Assembly: GCA_036655355.1 (NCBI GenBank)
Contig: JAVVQG010000001.1
Span: forward strand, 280,045 to 344,044
Direction of reading: 5' to 3'
From: Bacteroidales bacterium
Lineage (GTDB): Bacteria > Bacteroidota > Bacteroidia > Bacteroidales > JAUNSR01
Length of the DNA: 64,000 nucleotides
This document shows positions 7,521-31,949 of the stretch, piece by piece; position 1 is the first letter of the stretch, and every line of letters begins with the position of its first letter. The notes beneath the pieces were generated by a model. It was not told the origin of the DNA, ran no database searches, and saw only the letters and a list, made by a program, of their open reading frames with translations. Made by a program: the position numbers and the translations under genes.

Positions 7521-7587
7521 AAGGTCAAAGGCACCATCTATTTACCTTTTGTTGGTATCTCATCTTATGTTGAGCTACGACGATTTC
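7521..7587 (-). promoter_or_regulatory. recurrent leader cassette, copy A (upstream of the TonB-dependent receptor)
   Basis: The gene-sense core TAGATGGTGCCTTTGACCTT ends 27 nt before the ATG. It aligns over about 68 nt with copy G on the opposite strand. Confidence 0.6.
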
Positions 7588-7747
7588 ATTGACCCCTAAT
7601 TGGGGCAAAAGTAAAAATAGATTTGAAATAGTTACTTCTTTTATAAAGGATAATAAATATATTTGTTTCTTTCAGAACTCAACCTTGAAACACATTGTAC
7701 AACTCTAACCTTTAACTACCGAACTAAACCATAATAATTTATACAAA

Positions 7748-7816
7748 GAAAATCGCCATAACTCACCATTAGTTGAAATACCCAACTGAGGGTAATTAGA
7801 TGGCGCATTTGACCTT
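7748..7816 (+). promoter_or_regulatory. recurrent leader cassette, copy G (upstream of the GH63-like gene)
   Basis: The core TAGATGGCGCATTTGACCTT (7797-7816) lies 37 nt before the ATG at 7854. It forms an inverted repeat with copy A. Confidence 0.6.
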
Positions 7817-7853
7817 AATGTAAAAAATAGATGATACTCAAATAAAATCGAAT

Positions 7854-9338: not shown

Positions 9339-9346
9339 CAATCAAA

Positions 9347-10120
9347 ATGAATGTAATCTATTTCTCCCCTACCCGCACTTCGGCAAAGATCGCCGAAAGC
9401 ATTGCCTACGGAATGGGCGCACAAAGTGTGGATGAATTAAATATCCAGGATCTCACTTACCCGGATTCGGCATCGGTTAAAAATTATGCGCGACAAGAGG
9501 GTGCTGTCATTATTGCTGCGCCCGTATATGCGGGTCGGATAGCACAAACGGCTGTTGAACGGTTATCCTTGATCAAAGGAGAAGGAAACCCCGCTGTCGT
9601 AGTTGCCGTTTACGGAAACCGCGACTATGAAGATGCGTTGGTTGAATTACAGGACCTGGCAGAGTCGTGCGGTTTCCGTACAATCGCAGGAGCGGCTTTT
9701 GTAGGGGAGCATTCATACAGCCGTCCCGGAATGCCCACCGCGGGGGGGCGTCCTGACCCTTCGGATCTTGAGATCGCTTTCGGATTCGGAAAAGCCGTAA
9801 AGGAAAAACTAGAGCAAGAGAAGAGCGAAACAGAGTTGATTCTTCCCGGCAATCGTCCTTATGTATATAAAGGACCTTTTACCCCCGCTACTCCCATTAC
9901 TGCGGATGAATTATGTACACAATGCGGAACATGCATCGATTACTGTCCGATGGATGCCATCACGCTTCAAGATGAGATTGTTAGCGATATCGAACTGTGT
10001 ATAAAATGTTGTGCCTGTGTTAAAATATGCCCCAATGAAGCGCGTATTTTCAACACGCCTTACACGGAACTTCTTCATAAAAACTTCTCACGCAGAAGAG
10101 AACCGGAACTCTATCTTTAA
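9347..10120 (+). CDS. flavodoxin-like domain fused to a 2x[4Fe-4S] ferredoxin domain
   Basis: The N-terminal fold is flavodoxin-like (VIYFSPTRTSAKIAE..., IIAAPVYAG). The C-terminus has two Cys clusters, CTQCGTCIDYCP and CIKCCACVKICP. It starts 8 nt after the preceding gene. Confidence 0.7.
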   Translation: MNVIYFSPTRTSAKIAESIAYGMGAQSVDELNIQDLTYPDSASVKNYARQEGAVIIAAPVYAGRIAQTAVERLSLIKGEGNPAVVVAVYGNRDYEDALVELQDLAESCGFRTIAGAAFVGEHSYSRPGMPTAGGRPDPSDLEIAFGFGKAVKEKLEQEKSETELILPGNRPYVYKGPFTPATPITADELCTQCGTCIDYCPMDAITLQDEIVSDIELCIKCCACVKICPNEARIFNTPYTELLHKNFSRRREPELYL

Positions 10121-10175
10121 CGATGTTCTTCTCACGCCAGGCCGGTCAAGATATTTAAGAAAGAAGCAAAAAAAC

Positions 10176-10224
10176 ACCCCCGAAGAACCAATCGATTGGA
10201 AAGGACTCTTCGGGGGTATTTTTA
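10176..10224. terminator. bidirectional intrinsic terminator-like hairpin
   Basis: 11-bp arms ACCCCCGAAGA (10176-10186) and TCTTCGGGGGT (10207-10217), with an A-run before and ATTTTTA after. It lies between convergent genes. Confidence 0.6.
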
Positions 10225-10249
10225 TCTGAGCATCTTAAACTTGCCAGAA

Positions 10250-11377
10250 TTATTTCAAAAGTTCTTTTAGAAGTTCATAAAACTCAGGGGATTCTCCTAC
10301 AATTATTTTTACGATATTTCCCTGCGGGTCAATTACAACTTTGGTAGGGAAAGCACTTACCGCATATTTATTCTGCACGGTCACATCTTTTCCTGCATAC
10401 AGGTTGATCCACGGCAGTTCGTATTTACGGATTCCTGCCTCCCAATCTGCTTTCTCATCTCTGCAGTCAATTCCTACAATCTCCAGCTTACCTTTGTATT
10501 TCTCATAGGTCTCCTTCATATCCGGAATTCCTCTTAAGCACCAACCGCACCACATGCCCCAGAAATCGAGTACCACATATTTACCCTTCAAAGAAGCGAG
10601 TGAAACCATCTCTCCTTTTTCGTTCGGCAATGAAAAATCGGGAGCCGGAGATCCCGGATTGAGCATTTTAATCGCTTCTCGTCGTTCATTCTCATTATTA
10701 TATCGTTGAAGTGTCTCCTGAATCATTGTTTTAAACGGCCCTTTTTCCAACTCTTTATTCAAAACGTCTTTCGTAGCGTCTACTACATCATATCCTGAGG
10801 TTGCAAAGTAGTATGCCGATAATTCCGTATTCGGATGCGCTTTGATATACGCGATGATAAGATTATCTTTCTCTTTATAAACCGCTTCACTGTTTGATCT
10901 GAATACTGCCATCAGTGAATCGTTCATTCTACCGCTCTGCACTTCTTTCTGATAATAGGAAGTTAGTTCCTTTTGTTTCTGCTGAAGAGGATCCAATTCG
11001 GTAAAAGCATTTTTCTCTTTATAAAACTCAGATCCGGTGACCTGCAGATTCTCTACAGTGCCTGTCACTTTCAGTTTATTACCGGGTAGCAGCACTATAC
11101 TTTCCTGTGCACCGCTCATTCTTAATGCTTGATTTCCGGTTGGCTTGGCGAAAATAGACACGAATGAAACTGCGGAGTCGGGCAAAGTAATACTGAAAGA
11201 ACCATTCTTTAAAGGAATCGTATCTAACGTATTCTTAGTAGCACCCATAAAATATTGCGATACAAGAATCGTATCGCTCTCTACTCCTTGAAGCGTTCCT
11301 TCAATATTTCCTTGCGGAGACTGACATGAAATAACCGAAAGAAATAAACCTAATGCGCCATAGAAATTTAATTTCAT
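10250..11377 (-). CDS. TlpA/ResA-family periplasmic thiol:disulfide oxidoreductase (lipoprotein)
   Basis: Lipobox LSVISC, an N-terminal beta-rich domain and a C-terminal thioredoxin fold with the active site WGMWCGWCLRG. Confidence 0.85.
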   Translation of the reverse strand: MKLNFYGALGLFLSVISCQSPQGNIEGTLQGVESDTILVSQYFMGATKNTLDTIPLKNGSFSITLPDSAVSFVSIFAKPTGNQALRMSGAQESIVLLPGNKLKVTGTVENLQVTGSEFYKEKNAFTELDPLQQKQKELTSYYQKEVQSGRMNDSLMAVFRSNSEAVYKEKDNLIIAYIKAHPNTELSAYYFATSGYDVVDATKDVLNKELEKGPFKTMIQETLQRYNNENERREAIKMLNPGSPAPDFSLPNEKGEMVSLASLKGKYVVLDFWGMWCGWCLRGIPDMKETYEKYKGKLEIVGIDCRDEKADWEAGIRKYELPWINLYAGKDVTVQNKYAVSAFPTKVVIDPQGNIVKIIVGESPEFYELLKELLK

Positions 11378-11433
11378 AATTTTAATGTATTAGTAATTGA
11401 ATTCGGGGAATGTATAAAACAAAAGATCAGAGA

Positions 11434-13920
11434 CTATATTTGACGTTGCATCCGTGAAAGTGCAGCGTTATTTTCGTCAACAAAAGACGTGACTTCTTCA
11501 TCGTGTTTTTCCTTTTTCCGAAAGGCTGCCGCAATCAGGATAAGAATCGCTCCGTAAATAGCATAAATCAGATTCAGTATAGCCGGGGTATCGGTTTTCC
11601 CATAAGAATGGAGACCTGAAAGATAATAGTTTACCCCGAAATAGGTCATCAATACAGAAGCAAAAGCAAGCAAAGTCATCGTGTTAAATGCAAAATCACT
11701 TTTCAGTCCGCGTATACGGTGACTATGGGTTACAAAAGCATATACCAACATTGTAACTAAAGCCCACACCTCTTTGGGGTCCCAGCCCCAATAGCGTCCC
11801 CACGATTCATTGGCCCAAATTGCTCCCAGAAACGTACCTGCACTAAGCAGACATAATCCGATAATCAGCGACAATTCATTCATCAACCGCAACTCTTTCA
11901 GCTTATGACGAAAGCGGTTGCTTCGGGATGAGAGTGATGCACTCATGGAGAAGAGACTCAATAGGAAGCTCATACCGAAAAATCCGTAACTGGCCATGAT
12001 GACCGCTACATGAAACATCAGCCAAGGCGATTTCAGTACCGGAACCAACGGGGTGATTTCGGGATCCATGAAATTAAAATTACTCACCAACAATATAAAT
12101 CCGGCTAATAATCCGGCTAAACCAAAAGTCAACGGTGAACGACGCATGAAGAACAATCCTGCAAAAACCGCGCTCCAGCCCACATATACCATCGATTCAT
12201 ATGCATTTGACCAGGGTGCCTGCCCCGAAATATACCAACGCAGAGCGATTCCTGCCGTTTGTGTAATAAACACCAACAATACGGCAAAACAGCTCCCCTT
12301 AATCAAAAATGAGAAGATGGAATGGGGTGTCATTAACCCCAAAAGGGAGAATAATAACAGAAAAGTTGAAAAGGCAAGATAGAATATAGCCGAACGTCCA
12401 AAGATATTCATCCGGTTATAAAGGAGTTCCGCTTTAATCTTCCCTTCGTCGATTAATCCGGGGGTACTTTTCGCTTTCTGATAAGTTGAAAGCATTCCTA
12501 CAATCTCATCGGCCTGCTTCCATTCGCCTTGTTGGATTCCACGATCAAGTTCACTCAGATACCATGGAAATATCTTGCTTACAAACATTGAATCTTTCCC
12601 GCCGAATGACGAAAGATCCTCGCCTGGAGAGAACCAGCGACCCGTACGTTCCTTTTCCAAAGGAAATAAAGCTAGATAATCCCCTTGTTGAAGAGCATAG
12701 ACAATATTCAATCGTTCATCGAGTTTAAGCAGATCCTTATCCAGTTTCGACCGTTCTTTATTCGATTTTTTATAAACCTGTTCTACAATTCGCTGTAGTT
12801 TATAATCTCCGTTCTGATCAAACAGTGCATAATAAGGAATATGCGTTCCGGATGTTCCGAGCAACTCATGAATCGCTGCATTATCCTGTGCGATGAGAGC
12901 GATTTGATTCCAATAATCAGGATAGAGGATCAACCCGAGCATCACCTGCTCTGCACGATAACCTTCAAAACTGTTTTCCCGGTAGATTTTACGAAGCAAT
13001 TTAGAGGCATAGGTGTTTACGGGTTCTGTTCGTCCGGAATTACATTGTACAATCAATTCTCCAAATTTATCCGCATGTTCCACCGAAGGAATAAATCGAT
13101 CGATTTCATTTTGTAAATGGGTTTGATCATATCTCTCTTGAGCAGAAAGAAGCGAGCCGGAAAAGAGAGGGGAAAGTCCCCAACACAGCATCACCACCGT
13201 TGTTATTTTCTTCAACTCGGCACGAAGGTATCCGAATCTGGATCCCTTCGAAAGCAGAATCCATAAAATACCCGCAAACATGAGAAAATATCCTAGATAT
13301 GAAACAGCAGCCCCAACGGGATCGTAATTCACAATCAGCACGGTTCCTTGTTCATCGGGGTCATATGAGGATTGGTAAAGCCGGAATCCTTGTTCATGGA
13401 TTACTTTATTCATCGAGAGTATTTCACGTCGCGATTCCCCTTTCGAAGAGATGAGCAAATCACTTTCATACGAAGAGGGACTTTGGGAACCCGGATAACG
13501 ATGAATGGCAAAATTATTTAGCTTCACACTGAAAGGCACCTGATGAATTTCATTCCGATTGTCAGACAGGTAAATCATATCGGCATGTTCTCCCTCACGG
13601 ATATGCATGATACCCTCATAACTCCAACAGTGTGTAATCCAAGCTCCTGCGAGAATGAAGAGAAATGCGACATGAAAAAGCAACATGCCCATTTTGCGTA
13701 TTCGTATGTATTTTCTTTTTATAAGCACCCCGCATAGATTAACTACCGCTAAAAATAACAGAATGAAAATAAGAGGATTGTTGTAGAAATACTGACGTGC
13801 AATTGCTACTCCATATTGATGTTCAACAAAAGTAGCGGCACCATAAAGAAAAGCAAGTAAGAATAAGAGAAGGTTTGTCACATTACCCGAATAGAGTAAT
13901 GTCTTTAAGAGATGCAGCAT
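11434..13920 (-). CDS. ccsBA: System II cytochrome c synthase, fused ResB/CcsB-CcsA
   Basis: 828-aa polytopic protein. The N-terminal part is ResB-like. The C-terminal CcsA part carries the Trp-rich heme-handling motif WGRYWGWDPKEVWAL and flanking His residues. Confidence 0.85.
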   Translation of the reverse strand: MLHLLKTLLYSGNVTNLLLFLLAFLYGAATFVEHQYGVAIARQYFYNNPLIFILLFLAVVNLCGVLIKRKYIRIRKMGMLLFHVAFLFILAGAWITHCWSYEGIMHIREGEHADMIYLSDNRNEIHQVPFSVKLNNFAIHRYPGSQSPSSYESDLLISSKGESRREILSMNKVIHEQGFRLYQSSYDPDEQGTVLIVNYDPVGAAVSYLGYFLMFAGILWILLSKGSRFGYLRAELKKITTVVMLCWGLSPLFSGSLLSAQERYDQTHLQNEIDRFIPSVEHADKFGELIVQCNSGRTEPVNTYASKLLRKIYRENSFEGYRAEQVMLGLILYPDYWNQIALIAQDNAAIHELLGTSGTHIPYYALFDQNGDYKLQRIVEQVYKKSNKERSKLDKDLLKLDERLNIVYALQQGDYLALFPLEKERTGRWFSPGEDLSSFGGKDSMFVSKIFPWYLSELDRGIQQGEWKQADEIVGMLSTYQKAKSTPGLIDEGKIKAELLYNRMNIFGRSAIFYLAFSTFLLLFSLLGLMTPHSIFSFLIKGSCFAVLLVFITQTAGIALRWYISGQAPWSNAYESMVYVGWSAVFAGLFFMRRSPLTFGLAGLLAGFILLVSNFNFMDPEITPLVPVLKSPWLMFHVAVIMASYGFFGMSFLLSLFSMSASLSSRSNRFRHKLKELRLMNELSLIIGLCLLSAGTFLGAIWANESWGRYWGWDPKEVWALVTMLVYAFVTHSHRIRGLKSDFAFNTMTLLAFASVLMTYFGVNYYLSGLHSYGKTDTPAILNLIYAIYGAILILIAAAFRKKEKHDEEVTSFVDENNAALSRMQRQI

Positions 13921-13965
13921 AATGTTATCGGTTCATGGTAAAAAACAAACGAAGATAAAATAAAT

Positions 13966-15348
13966 TTACTTCTTTTTAAGATCAGTGGCGCTCTTTATTT
14001 GATTATTCATTAAACGTTTATGATACCCATTGGTAATCCCAGACCAACTCCCTTCTTTCCAAAGGGGAGGTACACAATGTGTTTTTTCCCATTCGGATAG
14101 TTGATTCATCAATAAGAGTGCCTGCTTGGGTTCTTTTTCAATAATATTTCGTTCTTCATCAATTTGATCAGCGAGGTTATACATTACTGAATCTACCCCC
14201 CGGGTGATGATTAATTTATAATCACCGGATCGAATCGCTCTCGAATCGAGCTTTCTCCAAAAAAGACTCTTGTGTGGATTTCCTTTTTCCTCACCAATCA
14301 AATAGGGGATCAAAGAGACTCCATCGATGGGCTTATTCAGTTCTTTCTTATTAATATTAACAGCGTCTATAACAGTTGCAAATATGTCTAACGAAGAGGT
14401 TAAGCCTTTAAAGGGTTCTTTGCTTTTAAACTTATTTCCCCATGTTATAAAAAAAGGAATCCGATGACCTCCTTCAAATTTATTACCTTTAAATCCTTTC
14501 AACGGATAATTAGATGAATTATTTGTTGTTGATCCACCATTATCACTTAAGAAAAATATCAACGTGTTTTCATACTTTCCCGTTCGCTTCAACTCTTTTA
14601 CCACTTCTCCTACTCCTCGATCCAAAGCGTAGAGCATTGCGGCATAGACCTGACGAGGCGAATCCGAAAACAGCGATAAATCTTTATCTGCAGCCTGATT
14701 AGGTGAATGGGGCGCCGTATAAGAAAGATACATCATAAATGGACGATCCCCATCAGACACCACTTGTTTGGCTCGTTCAGACAACTCATCCGTAAAATAC
14801 CCTTCAAAAGAGAGTGGATGCCCGTTATATTGGTATTGTGAAAGTTTACCATCCGCATCCGAACGAGAGGCATTATAATAATACGACCGTGATCCTCCGA
14901 TCAAACCATAAAAAGTATCAAATCCCTTCTTGTTGGGATGTTGGAAGGGCAAAGCGCCTAGGTGCCATTTCCCAATACAAGCGGTACGATAATCGTGCCG
15001 TTTCAGCAATGCGGGAAGAATCTCTTCATCGATTGGTAAACCGTCTCCTTTAGCTGAGGTATTACATTCGTAACCGAACCGTTGTCCATATCGTCCTGTC
15101 ATCAACATCGCTCTCGAAGGACTACTCACGGTTGCAGCAACATGAGCATCCGTAAACACTTTCCCGTCTGCAGCCAATTCATCCAAACAGGGCGTTTTAA
15201 TGTCATCTGAGCCCATAAATCCAAAATCCGCATAACCTGCATCATCTGCCAAAATAATCAAAATATTAGGTGGCTCTTGGTTTGATGATTGTGCATTCAT
15301 CCCGGTTAAAGGGAGTGAGCAAGTGAATAATATATTCAGTTTTTTCAT
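13966..15348 (-). CDS. exported S1-family sulfatase, Ser-type formylglycine motif
   Basis: Signal peptide; metal-site motif ILADDAGYADFG; FGly motif S-S-P-S-R (VSSPSRAMLMTGR); GKWHLG; DNGG. Confidence 0.85.
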   Translation of the reverse strand: MKKLNILFTCSLPLTGMNAQSSNQEPPNILIILADDAGYADFGFMGSDDIKTPCLDELAADGKVFTDAHVAATVSSPSRAMLMTGRYGQRFGYECNTSAKGDGLPIDEEILPALLKRHDYRTACIGKWHLGALPFQHPNKKGFDTFYGLIGGSRSYYYNASRSDADGKLSQYQYNGHPLSFEGYFTDELSERAKQVVSDGDRPFMMYLSYTAPHSPNQAADKDLSLFSDSPRQVYAAMLYALDRGVGEVVKELKRTGKYENTLIFFLSDNGGSTTNNSSNYPLKGFKGNKFEGGHRIPFFITWGNKFKSKEPFKGLTSSLDIFATVIDAVNINKKELNKPIDGVSLIPYLIGEEKGNPHKSLFWRKLDSRAIRSGDYKLIITRGVDSVMYNLADQIDEERNIIEKEPKQALLLMNQLSEWEKTHCVPPLWKEGSWSGITNGYHKRLMNNQIKSATDLKKK

Positions 15349-15374
15349 ATTCTCATCAGTTAGCTAGAAGAAAG

Positions 15375-15404
15375 GACACCATACCTTAAAAAAGATATGG
15401 TGTC
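15375..15404 (-). terminator. hairpin downstream of the 1327-aa gene
   Basis: 9-bp arms GACACCATA / TATGGTGTC with a T-rich tail on the minus strand. It sits in the 69-nt gap before the sulfatase gene. Confidence 0.45.
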
Positions 15405-15417
15405 ACTCTTTTGGTTA

Positions 15418-18400
15418 TTACTCTTCAATAATAATACGGAAGCCTACATTGTGAACTTTCTGATAAGGATAATATCCTTTACGAACCACAGCGGAAGCTT
15501 CTTTCGGATGATCCTTCCAAGAACCACCGCGAACCACTTTCCGATCTGCCGATCCTTGTTTCTTCTCATTATAAGGATACGGAGCGAAATCAGAACGAGT
15601 CCATTCCGCAACATTTCCATGCATATCATACAATCCGAACGGATTGGCCTGATAAGATCCTGGAGTTGCCATAATCATATTTCCATCGTCGATGCTCTCC
15701 ATTTTCGGATGATAACTATAATATTTGAACCACGGGTTCTTTTCCCCCATCGGCTGCGGATTCACACCCGACACGGCCATCTTGTTCATCTGCTTGTCAG
15801 ACATGTTTTCGAATTTACTGAAATCAGTATTGATATTGCCATACCAGAAATCCTCATCACTTCCTGCACGACAAGCCCATTCCCATTGAACCTCAGTCGG
15901 TAGTGTTATTTTCAGTCCGGTATGTGCACTTGCTTTCTGACAGAAATCCATCGCATCATTCATACTTACACGAATCACAGGTTGTTCCGGTTTATAGGCG
16001 ATGTAACCTTCGGTCACGTGGTCTTTCCATTGCTGGTCTACAAAACGGCTGTTGTGTTCTGGGAAATAAGCATTAAATTGTTCGTTCGTAATCTCTTTTT
16101 CAGACATCCAGAATGATTTTTTCACTTCTGCCTTATGAGCTGGTGCATAATTGCGGTTATCCTGATTTTTACCCATAACGAATTTACCTGCAGGCACCTT
16201 CACAAAGGTCAGTTTCTTACCTGGAGCCACTTCGATCTCTTTGCGTTCAGGCTGTTCTTCATTCACCACAAACGGGAAGTTCTTCAGCTTCACTTCTTTG
16301 AAACGAGTGGGCGTAAATGACGTTTTTACAGGCTCCGCCTTCGGCTGGCTTTCAAGATGTGCAGCATAGTCTTTCAACTCCTGTTTCCAATCGGCATATA
16401 CTCCGTTGGCGTATTTCTTGTTCAGATTAATACGACGACTGATCTGGTCTCGATCACAATTATTCAACTCGATCGCTTCAAATGTTCCTTTATCCGGTGC
16501 ATTAAAGTCAATCCAATTATACAATTTACGCCACTCGGCATCGGTTAACGCCACCCCGTAATGGCCATCTTTCAACATGCGCACCAACGGACTCACCGAA
16601 GCATGATATTCGTACGGATAAAGAACCTTCATTCCCGCTTCCGGTCCTTGGCGATGAATATACGGATGAAGATCCAGATAACTCAATCCGAATCCGCGTT
16701 CATCTTTTCTTCCCCCGGTATAGTTACGCGATAACTTCGAGCCGTCGTGACAAGAGATACAGTTGCGATCCAGAATCGGTTGGATTTCCAGATCGAAAGT
16801 AAAGGAGCGAACACCGCCTTCTGCCGTTTTCAAAGTCTGAGGTCCTTTCTTGGAAGCCATTACTCGTTTTGGCATCGGGATCTGATTCTGATCCTCATGA
16901 CATCCTACACAAGAAACCGTTTCGCCGGGCTGTCCTGTCAGCCAGCTACGCATCCATTGGATGGCGCGACCTTCAGAATCGAGCGGCTGAAGTGAAATCG
17001 GCGTATTCGCCGGGATCTTGAACATCACAGAACCGTCTTCTTCCACCGGAACTGTTCCCAGCAGTCGTTTTATGTCCCATCCGCTCTGGATACCCTGTGC
17101 TACGTGATCGGACGCGGTACGCAGATAAGCATATTCGTAAGCGAAAACACGCAACTCTTTCACCGTTCCTCTCGGCACATCCGGCAAACCTTCCCCTTCA
17201 TAGATATCCTGAATGAAAACGGTAGCTTCTTTCGAATTGGTATTAATCTTTTCAGGAATAACAGGTGGAAGCGGACGTTTAACTGCCGGGATACCATAGA
17301 TATACCCCTCACCTTCGGACTCTTTAATAAGCGTCAGGTTATCAAACGTATCCACCAGGTAAAGTCCCCAAAGACTATTCGGTGATAATTTGGCCGTAAC
17401 GATATAATAATCCTTATTCAAGGGCTGCGGTTTAAGGAACTGCGGCCACACACCGTCGACCATTTCGTCTTTTACGATCGGAACGATAGGACGTTTACTG
17501 AATGGAAGTTCCTGCAACATACCTTTCTCCTCCTTACGGCTTTTGGCCGGATCAAAAAGAATCAGACGTCCGGAACGCTGCGTTCCGTGGTGTCCGGAAA
17601 TGATACCGATGAATTGAGTCGGATGATCCGGCAAAGGCTGTACATCATAGATCGATGTAGGGAAAACAGAACCGCTGCCATACAAAGAACGCTGTTCCGT
17701 TCCATCCGGATTCATATGCATCACAATACGCGAAAAATAGTGGGTAAGATCGGTATATTCCCAACGCACATACATAATACGTCCGTTATTCATCACCACC
17801 GGTCCCCAGTTCGCGTCCTGATCAAACGTCAGACGACGCATCGAATTATCTTTCGGATCTAAAATACAGAAGTTCCCCACCTGATCGCTTCCACTTACGC
17901 ACGGAACCCCTTGTCCACCCACATTGGATGCCGCGATAATCTTTCCGTTAGGCAAATAAGTAGCGTCAAAATAATCGATATCCTCAGGTGTTCCCTGTGT
18001 AATCTGTTTAAAGCCGCTACCGTCTGTATTCACCTCATAAACCTGCCAATGGTGATCACCCTCCTGAGGCATTGAAAATAACAACCTATCAGCGTCCCAA
18101 TGCAGTTTCAAATCTGGAACAGATGCTGAATTAGTAGGTTTGAAAATCAAACGAGAAGTGATGTCGCCGCGAAGGTTAGAAAGCTCTTCGATTGAAGCAT
18201 TAAAACCTTGTTGGGATGCCGACGTCTGATTCGACCAGTTATTAGGGGGAGTTCCCAAGGCAGGCGGATTAGAATGGCGTGCATTCAGTCCCATCTGATA
18301 ACGTCCCACGATCAGTTTATCCATGTCCAGCAAAGGATTATCAAGCAAAATCTCCTTTTTCAGTTTCAATGCCGTAACGGCATTTTCGATTGTCTGCCGA

Positions 18401-25270: not shown

Positions 25271-27051
25271 AATGAGTTTACATATTCGGTTAATTCATCT
25301 AGCTCTTTCTCTGAAATCTTCGAATCGACTCCATGTTTGTGTATTTTGAATACATCCTTCAGCGTAGCTGCTCGTCCGTCGAACAGATAAGGTGCCGTTC
25401 GCCAAACCTCTACAAGCGTAGGGGTATCCCACCCTTTTTCAAATTCAACGTCATCGCCGATTCGGTGCATCTGCATGTCGGTATAGTACGGTCCGGAGTG
25501 ACAACTTGCGCAATTCAGCTTATCAAAGACCTTTCTTCCCTTTTTCGCCTTCTCACTCAGTTCTCCGTTCACGAGCCATGGACTTGGTACGGGACGCAAT
25601 GCACGCAGGTAGTCATCCACGCAGGTAGCCATATCTTCCGGGCACTCTGCGAACTGAATGTGCGTAAATCCTTTTCGCACCGCTGTTTCCGCTTTGTCAC
25701 GGATTCCGGAAATCATAGCCGGAGGCGTCACATGTGAATAAAGCATGCTTTTACAGTTCTTTGAATTACCCAATCCGTCATTCAGCAGATCCCAATTCAT
25801 ACCGTCCGTTCGGGCATCGCCAGGATGGCAACCGTTACAGGACTGCCAGTTCTGAAAACAATACGCAGCATCGTTGAAATACTTCTCGCCCTTCATCTCA
25901 CGCGATTCTTGACGGTTTTCCACGAGTGCAAAACTCGAAAGGGATTTATCTCCAAGGGAGAGCAGGTTCATATCGTCAGAAAAATAGGACGGCACGATGG
26001 CGGTATTCTCTTTTATGATGAATTGACGGGGACCATTTCCTTTCAAGGTGATCCGATCCCGCAGACCGTAAAGAAAACGCAGGTCGTAGGCCAACGCCTC
26101 TTTCTCTGCATGCGCCTCAAAGCGACGGATGAACTCCGGATAATCCACCAGACTCACCTCATGTGTTCCCGAATGTGTAATCACAACTTTCTCCGGCGTA
26201 CATGCGATGCCCCAGATTCCCGCGGCTCCTCTTTCAGGCTCATCAAGCAATACCGTACCCTGATGCATCATACGCTCCACATCGATGATACTCATGGCGC
26301 TGGTGTTCATCCACCCTTGCTGCAACTGATTCGTCGGCACTTGAAAGCGGCCCAGGTTATGCGTAACGAATACGTACTTTCCATCGGGACTAAGGCAAAT
26401 CCCCCGAAGCGCATTACTTCCGTTATAAAGTTGTATATCTTTTATCTTTTTGAAACTCTTCAGATCGATTACCGAAACACAAGCCGCTACCGTATCCACA
26501 TCCGCTCGCTGTGCCGGCAGGAAATTTGTCACAAACAAGTATTTCCCACTTTTATCGATCACAGCCCCCTTGGGCTCGCGCAATACATCAACTTCTCGCG
26601 ACACCTTCATTCGCTGTAAATCAACCTCCTGCACATTGTTGGAAAATTGATTCAAAACATACAATTTCTGATCCTTCCCGTTGTAAACGGGCGTGTTGGT
26701 GCCGCTTTTGGTGGCAATTCGGCTTTTGATATTCCCTTGCTTATCCAATACAAGCAATTCGCCGCTCTTTTCAAAAAGGGTCACATAAATATCCTCCTGA
26801 CCATACGCTACGCCGGTAGGAACCTGATCGAAGTTCACTTCAAACTGTATCTCTGAGAAATCGGGGGTATAAACGGTCGCTCGCTTCGTAAGCTTCTCCG
26901 TAACTACGATATTACCATCGGGCAAAGCGGTGAGATCCGTTATAGAAAGAGGTGTCTCGCTTCTTTTTGCTTTCACGCCGGCCAGGGTACCGGAAGCCAG
27001 AGAACAAAAAAACAAGACCCCTATCGTGCGGTAAAAAATAGAGTTTCTCAT
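25267..27051 (-). CDS. exported beta-propeller (YVTN-type) fused to a di-heme cytochrome c peroxidase/MauG-like domain
   Basis: Signal peptide present. Propeller repeats include LYVLNQFSNNV, YLFVTNFL and YVFVTHNLG. CNGCH lies at nt 25825-25839 and CASCH at nt 25498-25512. The segment WDTPTLVEVWRTAPYLFDGRAATL is CCP-like. Confidence 0.75.
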   Translation of the reverse strand: MRNSIFYRTIGVLFFCSLASGTLAGVKAKRSETPLSITDLTALPDGNIVVTEKLTKRATVYTPDFSEIQFEVNFDQVPTGVAYGQEDIYVTLFEKSGELLVLDKQGNIKSRIATKSGTNTPVYNGKDQKLYVLNQFSNNVQEVDLQRMKVSREVDVLREPKGAVIDKSGKYLFVTNFLPAQRADVDTVAACVSVIDLKSFKKIKDIQLYNGSNALRGICLSPDGKYVFVTHNLGRFQVPTNQLQQGWMNTSAMSIIDVERMMHQGTVLLDEPERGAAGIWGIACTPEKVVITHSGTHEVSLVDYPEFIRRFEAHAEKEALAYDLRFLYGLRDRITLKGNGPRQFIIKENTAIVPSYFSDDMNLLSLGDKSLSSFALVENRQESREMKGEKYFNDAAYCFQNWQSCNGCHPGDARTDGMNWDLLNDGLGNSKNCKSMLYSHVTPPAMISGIRDKAETAVRKGFTHIQFAECPEDMATCVDDYLRALRPVPSPWLVNGELSEKAKKGRKVFDKLNCASCHSGPYYTDMQMHRIGDDVEFEKGWDTPTLVEVWRTAPYLFDGRAATLKDVFKIHKHGVDSKISEKELDELTEYVNSL

Positions 27052-27078
27052 TTGTATTATAATCTAATTTTTAACATC

Positions 27079-27135
27079 AAGGTCAGATGCGTCATCCTCA
27101 TTTCGTCAGGTCGGATATCTCCTCTTCCGCTAAGG
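27079..27135 (-). promoter_or_regulatory. recurrent leader cassette, copy C (head of the 17 kb cluster)
   Basis: Gene-sense AGGATGACGCATCTGACCTT lies 27 nt before the ATG at 27051. The upstream part, GAGATATCC...GGAT, is alignable with copies A and G. Confidence 0.55.
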
Positions 27136-27160
27136 GATGGCTTTTATATAAGGTTAATGT

Positions 27161-27195
27161 TTTTCGTATTTGAAATTACTTTTCATATACGAAAA
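27161..27195. promoter_or_regulatory. 35-bp near-perfect palindrome, candidate operator
   Basis: TTTTCGTATTTGAAA-ttact-TTTCATATACGAAAA has 15-bp arms with one mismatch. It lies in the divergent region between the IclR gene and the cluster. Confidence 0.5.
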
Positions 27196-27209
27196 CAAAT
27201 ATATGTATA

Positions 27210-27217
27210 TATCTTTG
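27210..27217 (+). promoter_or_regulatory. Bacteroidota -7 promoter box (TAnnTTTG)
   Basis: TATCTTTG lies about 100 nt upstream of the IclR-family gene. Confidence 0.35.
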
Positions 27218-27316
27218 TAAAATAAATCATCCGAATTATAATTTTAGATATTATTATCATATTTTTATCGGTTGTGTACGTAAACCCAAAGCAGGTATAT
27301 TCAATAAAAACAAATT

Positions 27317-28132
27317 ATGATGAAAGAAGCGCAAACTGAAGAACTTCAGGAAATAAGTCACGAGGTTGAGAATACCTACAATGTACCGAATCTGGAAAAA
27401 GGACTTCTCGTACTGGAATTGCTTTCTGAGTCGGGAAACGGGCTCACCTTACAGGAGGTGCGCAACTCTCTGAAAATCTCCCTGACCACCGCCTACCGTA
27501 TTTTAAACACGTTGGTGCGCATGGAATACCTCATGTATCAGGAAAGCACAAAAAAATACATACTCTCTAGAAAAATGCTCACAATCGGATTCCGCTCCAT
27601 CCATGAACACAACGTGATGGACCTGATACTTCCACGCATGAGAGAACTTCGGGATGAGATCAAGGAATCGGTTTTCTTCGGCGTATTAGGACAAGACAGC
27701 ATTACGGTGCTTGAAAAAAGCGTCGGAACGTATGCGTTCTGCTTTTATCTGAATTCGGGACATAAAGTGGCCTTACACTGTTCTGCTCCCGGAAAGGCGA
27801 TGCTTGCGGCTTTACCGGCCGACATACGTGATCAGTACCTCTCCAGGATCAAATTTGAGATCCATAACGAAAACACCATTTCCAATCGCGAGCAACTTGA
27901 GAAAGAGTTGGAGGTCACATTACAGAGAGGCTATGGATTGGATTTGGAAGAAGAGATGAGCGGAGTGATCTGCATTGGCGCCGCTATTCTTGATTTTGCG
28001 GGATTGCCTTGCGGATGTTTGTGGACTTCGGCACCGAAAGACCGCATGAAACAACGCAACATCGAAAAGATCGGGAAGCAATTAGGAAAGATTACCCGTG
28101 AAATATCGATGGAGTTGGGATATCAGAAATAG
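27317..28132 (+). CDS. IclR-family transcriptional regulator
   Basis: N-terminal winged HTH (LTLQEVRNSLKISLTTAYRILNTLV) followed by an IclR effector domain (GYGLDLEEEMSGVICIGAAI). Confidence 0.8.
   Translation: MMKEAQTEELQEISHEVENTYNVPNLEKGLLVLELLSESGNGLTLQEVRNSLKISLTTAYRILNTLVRMEYLMYQESTKKYILSRKMLTIGFRSIHEHNVMDLILPRMRELRDEIKESVFFGVLGQDSITVLEKSVGTYAFCFYLNSGHKVALHCSAPGKAMLAALPADIRDQYLSRIKFEIHNENTISNREQLEKELEVTLQRGYGLDLEEEMSGVICIGAAILDFAGLPCGCLWTSAPKDRMKQRNIEKIGKQLGKITREISMELGYQK

Positions 28133-28232: not shown

Positions 28233-31949
<3,717 letters not shown>

What the first reader, a model, noticed from the sequence alone, without database searches (positions are those of the whole stretch)
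10250..28132. A 17 kb co-directional cluster next to an IclR regulator mixes heme-c redox proteins, cytochrome c maturation, a kinase/thiolase module and a sulfatase
Twelve minus-strand genes (27051 down to 10250) are packed with gaps of 0-94 nt, and several starts overlap the upstream stop. The only obvious internal hairpin is at 15375-15404. In order the genes are a propeller-CCP di-heme protein, a chorismatase-like enzyme, an exported cupin isomerase-like lipoprotein, a VOC protein, DhaK, DhaL, LsrF, a propeller lipoprotein, the 1327-aa NPCBM/propeller/cytochrome c/FGE-like protein, a Ser-type sulfatase, CcsBA and TlpA. An IclR-family gene is divergent from the head of the cluster, across a region that holds a 35-bp palindrome. 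I know of no characterised locus with this gene combination. It pairs exported c-type heme and FGE-like proteins with a cytoplasmic kinase-isomerase-thiolase branch that would yield DHAP. This suggests periplasmic oxidative processing of a (sulfated?) glycan-derived compound followed by cytoplasmic cleavage.
Basis: partly seen in the sequence, partly recalled or inferred. Interest (0 to 1): 0.75.

Follow-up and report, generated by a model that had tools for sequence, protein, structure and literature searches.

The report
Conserved heme-protein sugar-breakdown operon
Ten of these twelve genes form an uncharacterised operon shared by many gut Bacteroidales: it pairs two exported heme proteins related to the anammox enzyme hydrazine synthase with cytoplasmic enzymes that should split a small keto-sugar into DHAP and acetyl-CoA, and it is transcribed in the mouse gut.

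Summary
Twelve tightly packed minus-strand genes, the hairpin, the 35-nt palindrome and the divergent IclR gene all sit at the stated coordinates.

Ten of the twelve genes are a conserved unit. Of 42 related species loci with full flanks, 34 carry at least 8 of the 10. They occur in two gene orders that shuffle three blocks but keep them together. The sulfatase and TlpA are local additions.

The "propeller-CCP" protein is a fused hydrazine-synthase beta-gamma homologue. The 1327-aa protein is a hydrazine-synthase alpha homologue fused to a glycan-binding module and a non-catalytic FGE/PvdO-like domain. Natural single-chain fusions of the two exist. The catalytic hallmarks of hydrazine synthase are absent, so this is not anammox chemistry.

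The cytoplasmic block is a VOC isomerase, DhaK/DhaL and an LsrF 62% identical to E. coli LsrF. That implies a 1-deoxy-diketopentose being converted to DHAP plus acetyl-CoA.

In a Parabacteroides goldsteinii-type locus, mouse-gut metatranscriptome contigs cover the operon from the IclR gene to its last gene.

The substrate and the heme chemistry remain unknown. I found no description of this operon in the literature searched.

The parts
27317..28132 (+). IclR-family regulator, divergent from the operon head
   Evidence: HTH_IclR plus IclR_C. An IclR gene sits next to gene 1 in 32 of 80 related loci. It is divergent in the nearest relative L002 and co-directional as the first gene in order B. 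It is replaced by a hybrid two-component sensor in the B. intestinalis group.
27161..27195 (.). 35-nt palindrome, the likely operator shared by the two divergent promoters
   Evidence: one match against 0.02 expected by chance. On the minus strand a Bacteroides-type -7 box, TATATTTG (27203..27196), abuts it. A second box, TATCTTTG (27210-27217, + strand), faces the IclR gene. The same '-7 box then palindrome' layout, with symmetric base changes in both arms, is found upstream of gene 1 in L002, L003 and L059.
25267..27051 (-). Gene 1: exported beta-propeller plus di-heme CCP-like protein, a fused hydrazine-synthase beta-gamma homologue
   Evidence: Signal peptide and two CxxCH motifs. Best PDB matches are HZS gamma (1.1e-18) and HZS beta (1.2e-16) of 5C2V. 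NCBIfam hydrazine_BC 2.8e-27, far below its cutoff. Present in 60 of 80 loci.
24089..25270 (-). Gene 2: cytoplasmic FkbO/Hyg5-like (chorismatase family, RidA fold) protein
   Evidence: PF21168 plus PF01042. Hyg5 5AG3 2.3e-23 and FkbO 4BPS 3.5e-17, with the C-terminal LLVEIEG motif conserved. No signal peptide. Its start overlaps the gene 1 stop by 4 nt. Present in 53 of 80 loci.
23345..24058 (-). Gene 3: exported lipoprotein, cupin of the D-lyxose/D-mannose isomerase family
   Evidence: Lipobox LTSC. Profile match to 7NZO 6e-20 and 2Y0O 4e-14. Invariant H132, H134, E144 and H199. Present in 65 of 80 loci and part of the minimal R-1-3-9 version.
22985..23302 (-). Gene 4: 105-aa cytoplasmic VOC-fold protein of the glyoxalase I / methylmalonyl-CoA epimerase type, the candidate ketol isomerase
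   Evidence: AF2 pLDDT 95.9. Foldseek finds Ni-glyoxalase I and MCE with TMq about 0.7. Invariant H6, H58 and E99. About 440 relatives, all about 105 aa.
21883..22890 (-). Gene 5: DhaK subunit
   Evidence: Dak1 6e-94. 74% identical to the copies in P. goldsteinii and B. intestinalis.
21242..21904 (-). Gene 6: DhaL subunit
   Evidence: Dak2 5.8e-39. The ORF overlaps gene 5 by 22 nt. No DhaM was detected in the cluster.
20342..21214 (-). Gene 7: LsrF orthologue (3-hydroxy-5-phosphonooxypentane-2,4-dione thiolase)
   Evidence: NF006081 equivalog, 463 bits against a cutoff of 297. About 62% identical to E. coli LsrF over the full length, 1.3e-107, with the KTYY lysine segment conserved.
19413..20339 (-). 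Gene 8: exported lipoprotein, Mal s 1-like beta-propeller of unknown function
   Evidence: PF22701 5e-45. PDB 3NO2, an uncharacterised protein, 1.9e-59. Lipobox LALCSC. Present in 47 of 80 loci, always at the end of the 4-5-6-7 block.
15418..19401 (-). Gene 9: exported 1327-aa protein made of NPCBM, an HZS-alpha-like core (propeller, middle domain, two c-hemes) and an FGE/PvdO-like domain
   Evidence: Pfam NPCBM, HZS_alpha (2.4e-39) and FGE-sulfatase. Both CxxCH motifs align with those of HZS alpha. The model of a 65%-identical orthologue has HZS alpha 5C2V_A as its top PDB match, E 2e-21, over 788 columns. The FGE-like part is closest to PvdO and PorK and has no cysteine at the FGE catalytic site.
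15375..15404 (-). Terminator-like hairpin directly after gene 9
   Evidence: 13-bp stem followed by CTTTCTTCTA. It lies at the junction where the non-conserved sulfatase gene is inserted.
13966..15348 (-). Gene 10: exported Ser-type S1 sulfatase, a local insertion and not part of the conserved set
   Evidence: Sulfatase 2e-61. SSPSR motif. A homologue lies within 10 kb in only 3 of 80 loci. The B. intestinalis group has a DAHP-synthase-like gene in this slot instead.
11434..13920 (-). Gene 11: fused CcsBA (ResB plus CcsA) system II cytochrome c synthase, dedicated to the cluster
   Evidence: PF05140 plus PF01578. It follows gene 9 in both gene orders, in 53 of 80 loci.
10250..11377 (-). Gene 12: DUF4369 plus TlpA/ResA-like thiol-disulfide oxidoreductase lipoprotein. 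A plausible helper of CcsBA, but local to this genome
   Evidence: AhpC-TSA/Thioredoxin_8 and ResA subfamily. CGWC motif. Detected in 1 of 80 loci. Different genes follow CcsBA in L003 and L012.

Best explanation
This is a conserved, substrate-inducible catabolic operon of anaerobic Bacteroidales. It is built from three co-inherited blocks.

Block 1, periplasmic. A tetraheme enzyme is made of a hydrazine-synthase-alpha-like protein (gene 9) and a fused beta-gamma-like protein (gene 1). Gene 9 also carries a glycan-binding NPCBM module and a non-catalytic PvdO-like FGE-fold domain. A dedicated CcsBA (gene 11) attaches the hemes. This enzyme works with an exported cupin aldose-ketose isomerase (gene 3) and a propeller lipoprotein (gene 8). 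Together they act on a sugar unit that is presented by, or released from, a glycan. They convert it by a heme-dependent redox step plus isomerisation into a small neutral keto-compound. That compound needs no dedicated transporter.

Block 2, cytoplasmic. An FkbO-like enol-ether/imine hydrolase (gene 2) and a glyoxalase-I-type VOC isomerase (gene 4) bring the compound to a hydroxyacetone-type 1-deoxy-2,4-diketopentose. This is HPD, the unphosphorylated form of the LsrF substrate. DhaK/DhaL (genes 5 and 6) phosphorylate its hydroxyacetone end. LsrF (gene 7) then transfers the acetyl group to CoA, giving DHAP plus acetyl-CoA.

Control. An IclR repressor acts at a palindrome that abuts the -7 box of the operon promoter. 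In other lineages a periplasm-sensing hybrid two-component system takes this role.

The sulfatase and TlpA genes are additions specific to this genome.

Shown: gene identities, cellular location, conservation, the two gene orders, alpha/beta-gamma fusion proteins, and transcription in vivo in an orthologous locus.

Inferred: that the heme pair forms a complex, the direction and nature of the redox step, the identity of the substrate and intermediate, the roles of genes 2, 4 and 8, and the IclR-palindrome interaction.
For: Conservation:
- In 80 species loci anchored on gene 9, the counts are g1 60, g2 53, g3 65, g4 54, g5 55, g6 57, g7 58, g8 47 and CcsBA 53.
- Of 42 loci with at least 9 kb on both sides, 23 have 10/10, 10 have 9/10 and 1 has 8/10.
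- There are two orders, 1-2-3|4-5-6-7-8|9-C and R-1-2-3|9-C|4-5-6-7-8. The blocks were rearranged yet stayed together.
- Pairwise distances of g1, g2, g5, g9 and CcsBA correlate at r = 0.93-0.97 over 31 loci.

The heme pair:
- g1 matches HZS gamma and beta.
- g9 matches HZS alpha by Pfam (2.4e-39), by alignment of both heme motifs and by fold.
- Natural single-chain fusions exist. P0294 residues 2143-2724 align to g1 residues 36-591 at E 6e-91, downstream of an HZS_alpha plus FGE part. P0301 has the same domain series by Pfam.

The glycan link:
- Relatives of g9 keep the HZS_alpha plus FGE core but swap the N-terminal module among NPCBM, F5/8-type-C (galactose-binding), ConA-like lectin and a SASA sialate-O-acetylesterase domain.
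- Paralogues sit behind HTCS-SusC-SusD.
- An HTCS gene lies directly upstream in the B. intestinalis locus examined.

The cytoplasmic block:
- LsrF equivalog, about 62% identical to E. coli LsrF.
- DhaK and DhaL.
- VOC of the glyoxalase I / epimerase type.
- FkbO/Hyg5-like protein with the conserved C-terminal Glu motif.

Location: signal peptides or lipoboxes on g1, g3, g8 and g9 only; none on g2 and g4-g7.

Transcription:
- On the P. goldsteinii-type locus L041, contigs from four mouse-gut metatranscriptomes start at 5354-5503 (IclR start about 5436). They span gene junctions.
- In X52, contigs 5503-11321 and 12569-20629 stand at depth about 1100, against about 40 upstream.
- In X50, a single 12.9-kb contig is followed by one that ends at 20613, the gene 8 stop.

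Regulation: the '-7 box then palindrome' layout is conserved in the four nearest relatives.
Against: - No substrate, redox partner or terminal electron acceptor is encoded in the conserved set, and no transporter is conserved. The link between the periplasmic and cytoplasmic halves therefore rests on synteny alone.
- A minimal R-1-3-9 version exists without the cytoplasmic block within 10 kb (L040, L042, L048). A VOC-DhaK-DhaL-LsrF block is seen without genes 1-3 upstream in a Cytophagales contig, which is truncated downstream. The halves can therefore be separated.
- LsrF distances track the other genes less well (r about 0.55).
- The chorismatase-like gene, together with a DAHP-synthase-like insertion in one clade, also fits an aromatic or biosynthetic reading.
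- The transcription evidence comes from assembled contigs of an orthologous locus, not from this organism. Two runs (X42, X46) have flat depth that could be DNA carry-over.
- In one pure-culture RNA data set the B. intestinalis-type locus is only sparsely covered.
Confidence: 0.5

Rival explanations
1. AI-2 (DPD) scavenging or quorum quenching is the primary role. The operon takes up and destroys autoinducer-2 or its furanone derivatives through a route independent of LsrK and LsrG (VOC isomerase, DhaK/DhaL, LsrF). The periplasmic proteins capture or interconvert AI-2 forms rather than processing a glycan.
For: Gene 7 is an LsrF orthologue above the equivalog cutoff and about 62% identical to the E. 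coli enzyme. A kinase plus an isomerase-type enzyme lie next to it. No transporter is needed for small neutral furanones. The operon is expressed in the gut.
Against: This does not explain a tetraheme enzyme with a dedicated CcsBA, the glycan-binding or esterase modules on gene 9 relatives, or the HTCS/SusCD contexts. There is no LsrB/LsrACD or LsrR. The R-1-3-9 version lacks LsrF nearby.
Confidence: 0.12
2. It is a biosynthetic cluster. The cytoplasmic enzymes (chorismatase-like, DhnA/LsrF-type aldolase, VOC, kinase, and a DAHP synthase in some clades) make a small aromatic or quinonoid molecule. That molecule is exported and oxidatively matured in the periplasm by MauG-like di-heme and PvdO-like domains.
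For: FkbO/Hyg5 homology with conserved motifs. A DAHP-synthase I-beta-like gene is inserted in the B. intestinalis group, with weak resemblance to BagF/FevY, and gene 7 has a weak BagB/FevI hit. The best match of the FGE-like domain is PvdO, a periplasmic chromophore-maturing protein. There are MauG/MbnH-type hits for gene 1.
Against: Gene 7 scores 463 bits as LsrF against 81 bits as BagB/FevI. No exporter, ligase, NRPS/PKS or tailoring genes are conserved. The regulators are of catabolic type (IclR, HTCS). Glycan-binding modules sit on gene 9 relatives. An ATP-dependent Dha-type kinase has no obvious biosynthetic role. The DAHPS-like gene is confined to one clade (11 of 80 loci).
Confidence: 0.1
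3. It performs nitrogen-oxide chemistry. The HZS-like pair handles NO or hydroxylamine (detoxification, or N-N/N-O bond chemistry as in anammox), and the neighbouring sugar-type genes are only loosely related to it.
For: Homology to all three HZS subunits and to both heme motifs of alpha. Similar proteins in Bacteroidota MAGs have been read as HzsA (PMC11828985).
Against: - In my alignment the gamma-Cys165 position falls in a gap and gamma-His144 aligns with Ile447 (residues as listed in PMC12758564).
- No Tyr lies within 10 residues after the first CxxCH of gene 9.
- PMC12758564 reaches the same negative conclusion for other HZS homologues.
- No hydrazine dehydrogenase or HAO-type gene was seen among the window ORFs that were scanned.
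- Synteny with genes 2-8 is tight in two gene orders.
Confidence: 0.05
4. It is a chance or merely positional cluster. The sub-blocks are functionally independent operons that happen to be neighbours.
For: The blocks can occur apart (L040-type loci and L081). A terminator-like hairpin follows gene 9 in the window.
Against: 34 of 42 full-flank loci keep at least 8 of the 10 genes, across families from Bacteroidaceae to Rikenellaceae, Marinifilaceae and an Opitutales MAG, in two different orders. Transcript contigs cross the block junctions.
Confidence: 0.04

Closest known systems
Hydrazine synthase (HZS alpha-beta-gamma) of anammox bacteria, PDB 5C2V
   Same: Gene 9 has the alpha architecture (propeller, 'HZS_alpha' middle domain, two c-type heme motifs that align with alpha-I and alpha-II). 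Gene 1 is a seven-blade-type propeller fused to a CCP-like di-heme domain, as in the fused beta-gamma of Scalindua. The two genes are in one operon, and fused alpha plus beta-gamma polypeptides exist.
   Different: The catalytic hallmarks are absent: gamma-Cys165, gamma-His144 and alpha-Tyr591. Gene 9 carries extra NPCBM and FGE/PvdO-like domains. The host is an anaerobic, glycan-foraging Bacteroidales from gut metagenomes. No hydrazine dehydrogenase was seen. The pair is embedded among sugar-type catabolic genes.
HZS homologue clusters outside anammox bacteria (clades I-IV of PMC12758564; 'HzsA' of cold-seep MAGs, PMC11828985)
   Same: Co-located alpha-like and fused beta-gamma-like genes, secreted, with key HZS residues not conserved, and of unknown function. 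Bacteroidota are mentioned among the carriers.
   Different: Those clusters are described with FG-GAP/CRTAC1 and ABC binding-protein neighbours or extra c554 domains. In the passages I read, neither paper describes the FGE-fold fusion, the CcsBA, or the DhaK/DhaL-LsrF-VOC-FkbO-cupin partners, and neither covers gut Bacteroidales.
Lsr pathway for autoinducer-2 processing (LsrK, LsrG, LsrF) of Enterobacteria
   Same: A terminal LsrF thiolase orthologue, with kinase plus isomerase plus thiolase logic ending in DHAP and acetyl-CoA.
   Different: The kinase is two-subunit DhaK/DhaL, not the FGGY kinase LsrK. The isomerase candidate is a VOC protein, not LsrG. There is no LsrACDB importer and no LsrR. 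The implied order is isomerise first and then phosphorylate (inference).
PvdO and PorK/GldK: FGE-fold proteins without FGE activity
   Same: The C-terminal domain of gene 9 is closest to these and, like them, lacks the copper-binding cysteine pair.
   Different: Here the fold is fused to a di-heme HZS-alpha-like core. Its role (substrate binding, scaffold or oxidation) is unknown.
Isomerase-kinase-aldolase sugar routes that yield DHAP (fucose/rhamnose pathways, the DHAP shunt for 5-deoxyribose and methylthioribose) and Bacteroides polysaccharide utilisation loci
   Same: An aldose-ketose isomerase, a kinase and a class I aldolase-fold enzyme giving DHAP. Regulation by IclR or HTCS. Neighbouring glycoside hydrolases and sulfatases.
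   Different: The isomerase is exported. The kinase is of the DhaK type. The C-C cleaving enzyme is a CoA-dependent thiolase orthologue. There is no SusC/SusD pair in the conserved set. A heme-c enzyme is obligatorily linked.

Membership tests
Hydrazine synthase (HZS) | Alpha subunit fold: six-blade propeller, middle domain and C-terminal heme domain | tested here: met
   PF18582 2.4e-39. The model of orthologue P0046 gives 5C2V_A as top PDB match, E 2e-21, over 788 aligned columns of a 768-residue target. TM is only 0.36 because the heme region is low-confidence.
Hydrazine synthase (HZS) | Two c-heme motifs in alpha at the alpha-I and alpha-II positions | tested here: met
   C831xxCH and C881xxCH align with CSGCH and CAMCH of 5C2V_A. 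Both are invariant in the family.
Hydrazine synthase (HZS) | Alpha-Tyr591 as heme alpha-I ligand (with the His587/Cys303 zinc site) | tested here: not met
   The family consensus after the motif is CVGCHEDQNQIPIPKR, with no Tyr in the next 10 residues. The defining residues are taken from PMC12758564. Cys303 was not evaluated.
Hydrazine synthase (HZS) | Beta (propeller) and gamma (CCP-like di-heme) partner | tested here: met
   Gene 1 matches HZS gamma at 1.1e-18 and HZS beta at 1.2e-16, and has two CxxCH motifs.
Hydrazine synthase (HZS) | Gamma-Cys165 third covalent heme link, and gamma-His144 | tested here: not met
   In the phmmer alignment to 5C2V_C, the 'RVCGRD' segment containing Cys165 faces a gap in gene 1, and His144 aligns with Ile447. 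This is my residue count, using the offset fixed by Cys102/Cys105/His106 given.
Hydrazine synthase (HZS) | Anammox context (hydrazine dehydrogenase, HAO-type octaheme proteins, electron-supply module) | tested here: not met
   No such domain was found in the window ORFs I scanned or among the recurrent neighbours in 80 loci. The rest of the genome was not available.
Lsr autoinducer-2 processing pathway | LsrF thiolase | tested here: met
   NF006081 equivalog, 463 bits against a cutoff of 297. About 62% identity over 286 residues to 3GKF/4P2V. The lysine-bearing KTYY segment is conserved. That this Lys is the Schiff-base residue is from memory of Marques et al. 2014.
Lsr autoinducer-2 processing pathway | LsrK (FGGY kinase) and LsrG (ABM-fold isomerase) | tested here: not met
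   No FGGY or ABM domain is present in the cluster. DhaK/DhaL and a VOC-fold protein occupy these roles.
Lsr autoinducer-2 processing pathway | LsrACDB ABC importer and LsrR repressor | tested here: not met
   Absent from the window cluster and from the conserved neighbours.
Formylglycine-generating enzyme (FGE/SUMF1) | FGE (C-type-lectin-like) fold | tested here: met
   PF03781 1.3e-42. PDB hits to FGE, PvdO and PorK.
Formylglycine-generating enzyme (FGE/SUMF1) | Catalytic, copper-binding cysteine pair after the GGS motif | tested here: not met
   The segment 1229-1324 of gene 9 (…VVRGGSWKDHPKEASAVVRKGYYPYQKVHNVGFRI) contains no cysteine. The family consensus shows the same. The position of the pair in human FGE is from memory.
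FkbO/Hyg5 chorismatases | Family-level sequence match and conserved active-site motifs | tested here: inconclusive
   TIGR04444 gives 134 bits, below its cutoff of 325. PAATGIG and the C-terminal LLVEIEG motif are conserved against Hyg5. The N-terminal 130 residues are unmatched. The substrate is not testable here.
D-lyxose/D-mannose isomerase cupins | Cupin core with a His-x-His … Glu … His metal site | tested here: met
   Profile E 6e-20 to 7NZO. H132, H134, E144 and H199 are invariant in 10 orthologues. Assignment of these as the metal ligands is by analogy. Activity and substrate are not testable.
Dihydroxyacetone kinase (two-subunit DhaK/DhaL) | Dak1 and Dak2 domains on adjacent genes | tested here: met
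   Dak1 6e-94 and Dak2 5.8e-39. No DhaM/PTS partner is in the cluster, so an ATP-dependent mode is inferred.
System II cytochrome c biogenesis (CcsBA) | ResB-like domain fused to a CcsA heme-handling domain | tested here: met
   PF05140 1.8e-22 plus PF01578 7.8e-41 in one 828-aa protein. TIGR03144 gives 173.6 bits, just under its cutoff of 187.6.
Bacteroidota polysaccharide utilisation locus (PUL) | Adjacent SusC/SusD pair | tested here: not met
   None in the window cluster or in the conserved set. SusC/SusD pairs flank only the lone gene 9 paralogues (L006/L009/L011).
S1 sulfatase (gene 10, accessory) | Sulfatase domain with a C/S-x-P-x-R maturation motif | tested here: met
   PF00884 2e-61. 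SSPSR at residue 75, Ser-type.

The most novel reading that the evidence does not exclude
The HZS-alpha-like/FGE-fold protein and its beta-gamma-like partner are a new class of anaerobic, heme-c-dependent carbohydrate-active redox enzyme, an 'auxiliary activity' of gut Bacteroidales. It would turn a glycan-borne sugar into a 1-deoxy-diketopentose of the AI-2/DPD family. That product would then be burned through a previously unknown route independent of LsrK and LsrG (VOC isomerase, DhaK/DhaL, LsrF). This would connect host- or diet-glycan foraging with AI-2-type chemistry, and would give the large uncharacterised family of hydrazine-synthase relatives (about 1300 clusters at E <= 1e-30) its first function.
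Probability: 0.2. Interest if true: 0.9.

Novelty: new variant of a known kind. Interest (0 to 1): 0.78.

Why it matters
The relatives of hydrazine synthase outside anammox bacteria are a large family. There are 5399 cluster representatives at E <= 1e-3 and 1300 at E <= 1e-30. None of the matches I examined carries a known function.

Recent papers disagree on what such relatives mean. One reads them as hidden anammox potential (PMC11828985). Another rejects that reading (PMC12758564).

This operon places such a pair in cultivable gut species, including Bacteroides intestinalis, B. stercorirosoris, B. nordii, B. clarus, B. fluxus and Parabacteroides goldsteinii. It sits beside enzymes whose chemistry is largely predictable, and under a simple regulator. 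That makes the function directly testable by genetics and enzymology.

It would also explain why some gut Bacteroidales keep an extra cytochrome c maturation gene. It would define a new DhaK-dependent route to the LsrF substrate. And it may reveal redox chemistry on glycans that works without oxygen. The operon is clearly transcribed in the mouse gut.

Tried and rejected
- Exact-sequence look-up of the 1327-aa protein found nothing. The organism is known only from gut-metagenome contigs and has no RNA runs, so the operon structure of this very window could not be tested.
- RNA runs chosen for the B. intestinalis-type locus were uninformative. Organism A lacks the cluster and matched only a short repeat. 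Organism B gave one 37-kb contig, likely DNA or read-through. Organism C gave sparse low coverage.
- The exact palindrome core was not found in any related locus. A degenerate search then showed related palindromes only in the nearest clade.
It was redone with database homologues.
- Rfam and tRNA scans of the whole window found nothing, so there is no riboswitch clue to the ligand.
- Eight literature searches found no description of this operon. Most 'LsrF' hits appear to be unrelated uses of the letter string.
- Rejected: FGE-mediated sulfatase maturation, because there is no catalytic cysteine pair and the sulfatase is not conserved.
- Rejected: true hydrazine synthase, because key residues are missing.
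- Rejected: a PUL in the strict sense, because there is no SusC/D pair.
- Considered but left as speculation: specific substrates. These include 5-deoxyribose, methylthioribose, 1-deoxyxylulose, norfuraneol/DPD, quinate-type cyclitols and O-methyl or O-acetyl sugars.

Full report
**1. Observation**

The gaps between them are -4, 30, 42, 94, -22, 27, 2, 11, 69, 45 and 56 nt.

A hairpin with a 13-bp stem sits at 15375-15404, directly after the 1327-aa gene.

The IclR gene (27317-28132) is divergent. The intergenic region holds a 35-nt palindrome at 27161-27195. Its core occurs once in the window against 0.02 expected by chance.

**2. What the genes are**

| Gene | Identity |
|---|---|
| 1 | Exported propeller plus di-heme protein |
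| 2 | Cytoplasmic FkbO/Hyg5-like protein (Hyg5 2.3e-23) |
| 3 | Lipoprotein cupin of the D-lyxose/D-mannose isomerase family (profile 6e-20 to 7NZO; H132, H134, E144, H199 invariant) |
| 4 | 105-aa VOC protein (model pLDDT 95.9; nearest folds Ni-glyoxalase I and methylmalonyl-CoA epimerase) |
| 5, 6 | DhaK and DhaL |
| 7 | LsrF orthologue (equivalog 463 bits, cutoff 297; about 62% identical to E. coli LsrF) |
| 8 | Mal s 1-like propeller lipoprotein (PDB 3NO2, function unknown) |
| 9 | NPCBM, HZS_alpha middle domain and FGE-like domain, with two CxxCH motifs |
| 10 | Ser-type sulfatase (SSPSR) |
| 11 | Fused ResB-CcsA |
| 12 | DUF4369 plus ResA/TlpA-like lipoprotein (CGWC) |

Genes 1, 3, 8, 9, 10 and 12 carry export signals. 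Genes 2 and 4-7 do not.

**3.

- The best solved-structure matches of gene 1 are the gamma (1.1e-18) and beta (1.2e-16) subunits of Kuenenia hydrazine synthase.
- Gene 9 carries the alpha-subunit middle domain (Pfam 2.4e-39).
- Both of its heme motifs align with those of the alpha subunit.
- A model of a 65%-identical orthologue (P0046) has the alpha subunit as its top PDB match, E 2e-21, aligned over essentially the whole subunit. PvdO is next, for the C-terminal domain.

The features that make HZS a hydrazine synthase are not there. Taking the key residues from PMC12758564:

- gamma-Cys165 faces a gap, and gamma-His144 aligns with Ile447 (my count);
- no tyrosine follows the first heme motif of gene 9.

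The locus therefore has the HZS architecture but not its chemistry. PMC12758564 reached the same conclusion for other homologues.

The FGE-like domain has no cysteine at the catalytic position. It groups with PvdO and PorK/GldK.

**4. Conservation**

The gene 9 family is common in gut Bacteroidales. A scan of one genome per species found at least 576 coding stretches, and I analysed the best 80 loci.

BLAST of the window proteins against all ORFs of these loci gave these counts:

| Gene | Loci with a match (of 80) |
|---|---|
| g1 | 60 |
| g2 | 53 |
| g3 | 65 |
| g4 | 54 |
| g5 | 55 |
| g6 | 57 |
| g7 | 58 |
| g8 | 47 |
| CcsBA | 53 |
| IclR | 32 |
| Sulfatase | 3 |
| TlpA | 1 |

Many loci are cut short by contig ends. 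Among the 42 with at least 9 kb on both sides:

- 23 have all ten core genes, 10 have nine and 1 has eight;
- 4 carry only 3-4 of the core genes (three of them the minimal R-1-3-9 version);
- 4 have only a gene 9 paralogue.

Two gene orders occur:

- **Order A**, 1-2-3-4-5-6-7-8-9-C. Found in the window, the B. intestinalis group, B. nordii and Rikenella.
- **Order B**, R-1-2-3-9-C-4-5-6-7-8. Found in P. goldsteinii and other Parabacteroides, Tannerellaceae, B. fluxus, B. clarus, Massilibacteroides and an Opitutales MAG.

Three blocks were therefore permuted but kept together. This is the strongest argument for a functional link.

Pairwise distances of g1, g2, g5, g9 and CcsBA correlate at r = 0.93-0.97. 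No other gene family recurs in more than 13 loci, and no transporter is conserved.

The slot between gene 9 and CcsBA is variable. It holds a sulfatase in the window and a DAHP-synthase-like gene in the B. intestinalis group.

**5. Genes 1 and 9 work together**

A search of 1.84 billion cluster representatives with the HZS-alpha-like core found 5399 relatives at E <= 1e-3 and 1300 at E <= 1e-30.

Nine of the ten long relatives sampled keep HZS_alpha plus FGE-like and vary only at the N-terminus. The tenth (P0375) has HZS_alpha without an FGE domain. The N-terminal modules seen are NPCBM, F5/8-type-C (NedA galactose-binding), ConA-like lectin and a SASA sialate-O-acetylesterase.

Two giant proteins, P0294 and P0301, appear to fuse the alpha-like part to a beta-gamma-like part. 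P0294 residues 2143-2724 align with gene 1 residues 36-591 at 33% identity, E 6e-91. P0301 shows the same domain series by Pfam. This is a Rosetta-stone fusion.

The variable modules are glycan-binding or glycan-esterase domains. Lone paralogues of gene 9 sit behind an HTCS-SusC-SusD unit. In the B. intestinalis locus examined, an HTCS gene rather than IclR lies directly upstream of gene 1. Together these point to a carbohydrate substrate.

**6. Transcription and regulation**

No RNA data exist for the window's organism. I therefore used the P. goldsteinii-type locus L041, where IclR starts near 5436 and gene 8 ends at 20614.

| Run | Finding |
|---|---|
| X52 | Contigs 5503-11321 and 12569-20629 at depth about 1100; about 40 upstream and 460 downstream |
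| X50 | Almost no upstream coverage; one 12.9-kb contig 5782-18800; a following contig ends at 20613 |
| X51, X55 | Coverage starts at 5354 and 5451, with 2-7x upstream against 18-100x inside |

Contigs cross the block junctions. The caveats are that contig depth is crude, that X42 and X46 look flat, and that this is an orthologue rather than the window itself.

In the window, a Bacteroides-type -7 box (TAnnTTTG, consensus from memory) lies at 27203..27196 on the minus strand and abuts the palindrome. A second box, at 27210-27217 on the + strand, faces the IclR gene. No such box lies in the five longest internal gaps.

The same '-7 box then palindrome' arrangement recurs in the three nearest relatives. 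The base changes are mirrored in both arms: TTTTCGTAT…ATACGAAAA in the window against TTTTCATAT…ATATGAAAA in relatives. This fits an operator at the transcription start.

**7. Mechanism**

What is shown is listed above. The following is inferred.

- The LsrF orthologue fixes the end of the pathway: an acetyl transfer from a phosphorylated 3-hydroxy-2,4-pentanedione to CoA, giving DHAP and acetyl-CoA. This is established LsrF chemistry, from memory of Marques et al. 2014.
- DhaK-type kinases phosphorylate the hydroxymethyl group next to a carbonyl (from memory). That matches the hydroxyacetone end of unphosphorylated HPD and not of DPD. I therefore propose 'isomerise, then phosphorylate'.
- The glyoxalase-I-type VOC would do the ketol shift.
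- The chorismatase-like enzyme would hydrolyse an enol ether or imine precursor, for example a 3(2H)-furanone ring.
- Upstream, the exported cupin isomerase and the tetraheme HZS-like enzyme would generate this small neutral compound from a sugar unit recognised through the N-terminal glycan module.

Which sugar, which redox step and which electron partner are unknown. I put 0.5 on this overall scheme. I put much less on any specific substrate.

**8. Rivals**

| Rival | Confidence |
|---|---|
| AI-2 scavenging as the main role | 0.12 |
| A biosynthetic cluster for an aromatic or quinonoid compound | 0.10 |
| Nitrogen-oxide chemistry | 0.05 |
| Unrelated neighbouring operons | 0.04 |

The evidence for and against each is given in the Rival explanations section.

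**9. Comparison and novelty**

Each family is known. HZS-like pairs outside anammox bacteria were noted in 2025. None of the eight literature searches found this operon, the FGE-fold fusion, or the link to DhaK/DhaL-LsrF.

I class it as a new variant of a known kind: a substrate-inducible catabolic operon with an unprecedented enzyme set. It is of high interest because it is widespread, expressed in vivo and experimentally tractable.

**10. Limits**

- The 80 loci are the best-scoring ones, so more distant versions are under-sampled.
- Gene detection used BLAST at E <= 1e-8 and at least 40% coverage, which can miss divergent thioredoxin-fold genes.
- Residue-level statements for HZS rest on pairwise HMMER alignments.
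- The structural model of the gene 9 orthologue is of moderate quality (pLDDT 64.5).

Noticed in passing
L006, L009, L011 (Parabacteroides leei, P. faecis, MAG); e.g. L009:1000-15521: Lone paralogues of the 1327-aa protein sit in a PUL-like unit: HTCS, SusC, SusD, the paralogue, then a 509-aa exported protein with no Pfam hit and no heme motif. From its sequence pattern it looks like a beta-helix (my impression only). There is no beta-gamma partner nearby. A NrfA cytochrome c552 gene lies 2.6 kb downstream in L009.
   Followed up: partly
P0294 (3230 aa) and P0301 (2831 aa), from the representative search: Giant proteins that appear to fuse the HZS-alpha-like/FGE-like part to a beta-gamma-like part. 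They also carry PKD domains, PATR (autotransporter-type) repeats and InlB-like repeats, which suggests surface-displayed versions of the enzyme.
   Followed up: partly
L005:14119-14883 and the equivalent position in 11 loci of the B. intestinalis group: A divergent DAHP-synthase type I-beta-like gene (186 bits, below the NCBIfam cutoffs; weak likeness to BagF/FevY) occupies the slot between gene 9 and CcsBA where the window has the sulfatase.
   Followed up: partly
L040, L042, L048 (B. bouchesdurhonensis, Prevotella MAG, B. faecalis): A minimal version of the locus: IclR, gene 1, gene 3 and gene 9 only, with no FkbO-like gene, CcsBA or cytoplasmic block within 10 kb. In L040 it is convergent with an anti-sigma/SusC/SusD/DUF4843/PKD/thioredoxin unit.
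   Followed up: partly
L041:20730-23745 and 5-6 Parabacteroides loci: A sodium:solute symporter and a GH130 beta-mannoside phosphorylase follow gene 8 in the same direction. Some metatranscriptome contigs run on from the operon into them. In the B. intestinalis locus L012, a GH88 gene and a large co-directional ORF follow CcsBA instead.
   Followed up: partly
Gene 3 orthologues of order-B loci (e.g. L026:9112-9882, L078:609-1475): The lipoprotein cupin carries a 30-60-residue linker, rich in Cys, Asn, Glu and Gly, after the lipobox (e.g. CCAAAGKGQCTEQCGSDCKNECNN). This linker is absent from the window's copy. It may be metal-binding.
   Followed up: no
L012:13985-14082: A roughly 100-nt intergenic element after gene 9 matches many different contigs of an unrelated organism's RNA-seq assembly. 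It is a multi-copy repeat, perhaps a REP- or MITE-like element.
   Followed up: no
L067 (Opitutales MAG, Verrucomicrobiota): Nine of the ten core genes, in order B (gene 8 was not detected), in a MAG labelled Opitutales, at identities similar to Bacteroidales copies (g9 52%). This is either horizontal transfer or a binning error.
   Followed up: no
window 46000-50000: A low-GC stretch (0.31-0.33 against about 0.45 elsewhere). In and around it lie a DUF3990 gene, a DUF5128/DUF4934 six-blade propeller gene, a pentapeptide-repeat gene and ORFs with no hit. It may be an acquired island.
   Followed up: partly
window 3686-9338, 28233-33775 and 54641-59678: The cluster lies among glycan-foraging genes: a melibiase-type (alpha-galactosidase A family) enzyme, a GH63/MGH1-like enzyme, a GH2 with a ricin-B lectin domain, a second sulfatase (SGSH-type, SGPSR), a GH84 with CBM32, and a GH92. 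An HTCS gene lies at 41465-44968.
   Followed up: partly
window 9347-10120: A flavodoxin-like plus 2x[4Fe-4S] ferredoxin fusion gene converges on the end of the cluster. It was not detected in any of the 80 related loci.
   Followed up: no
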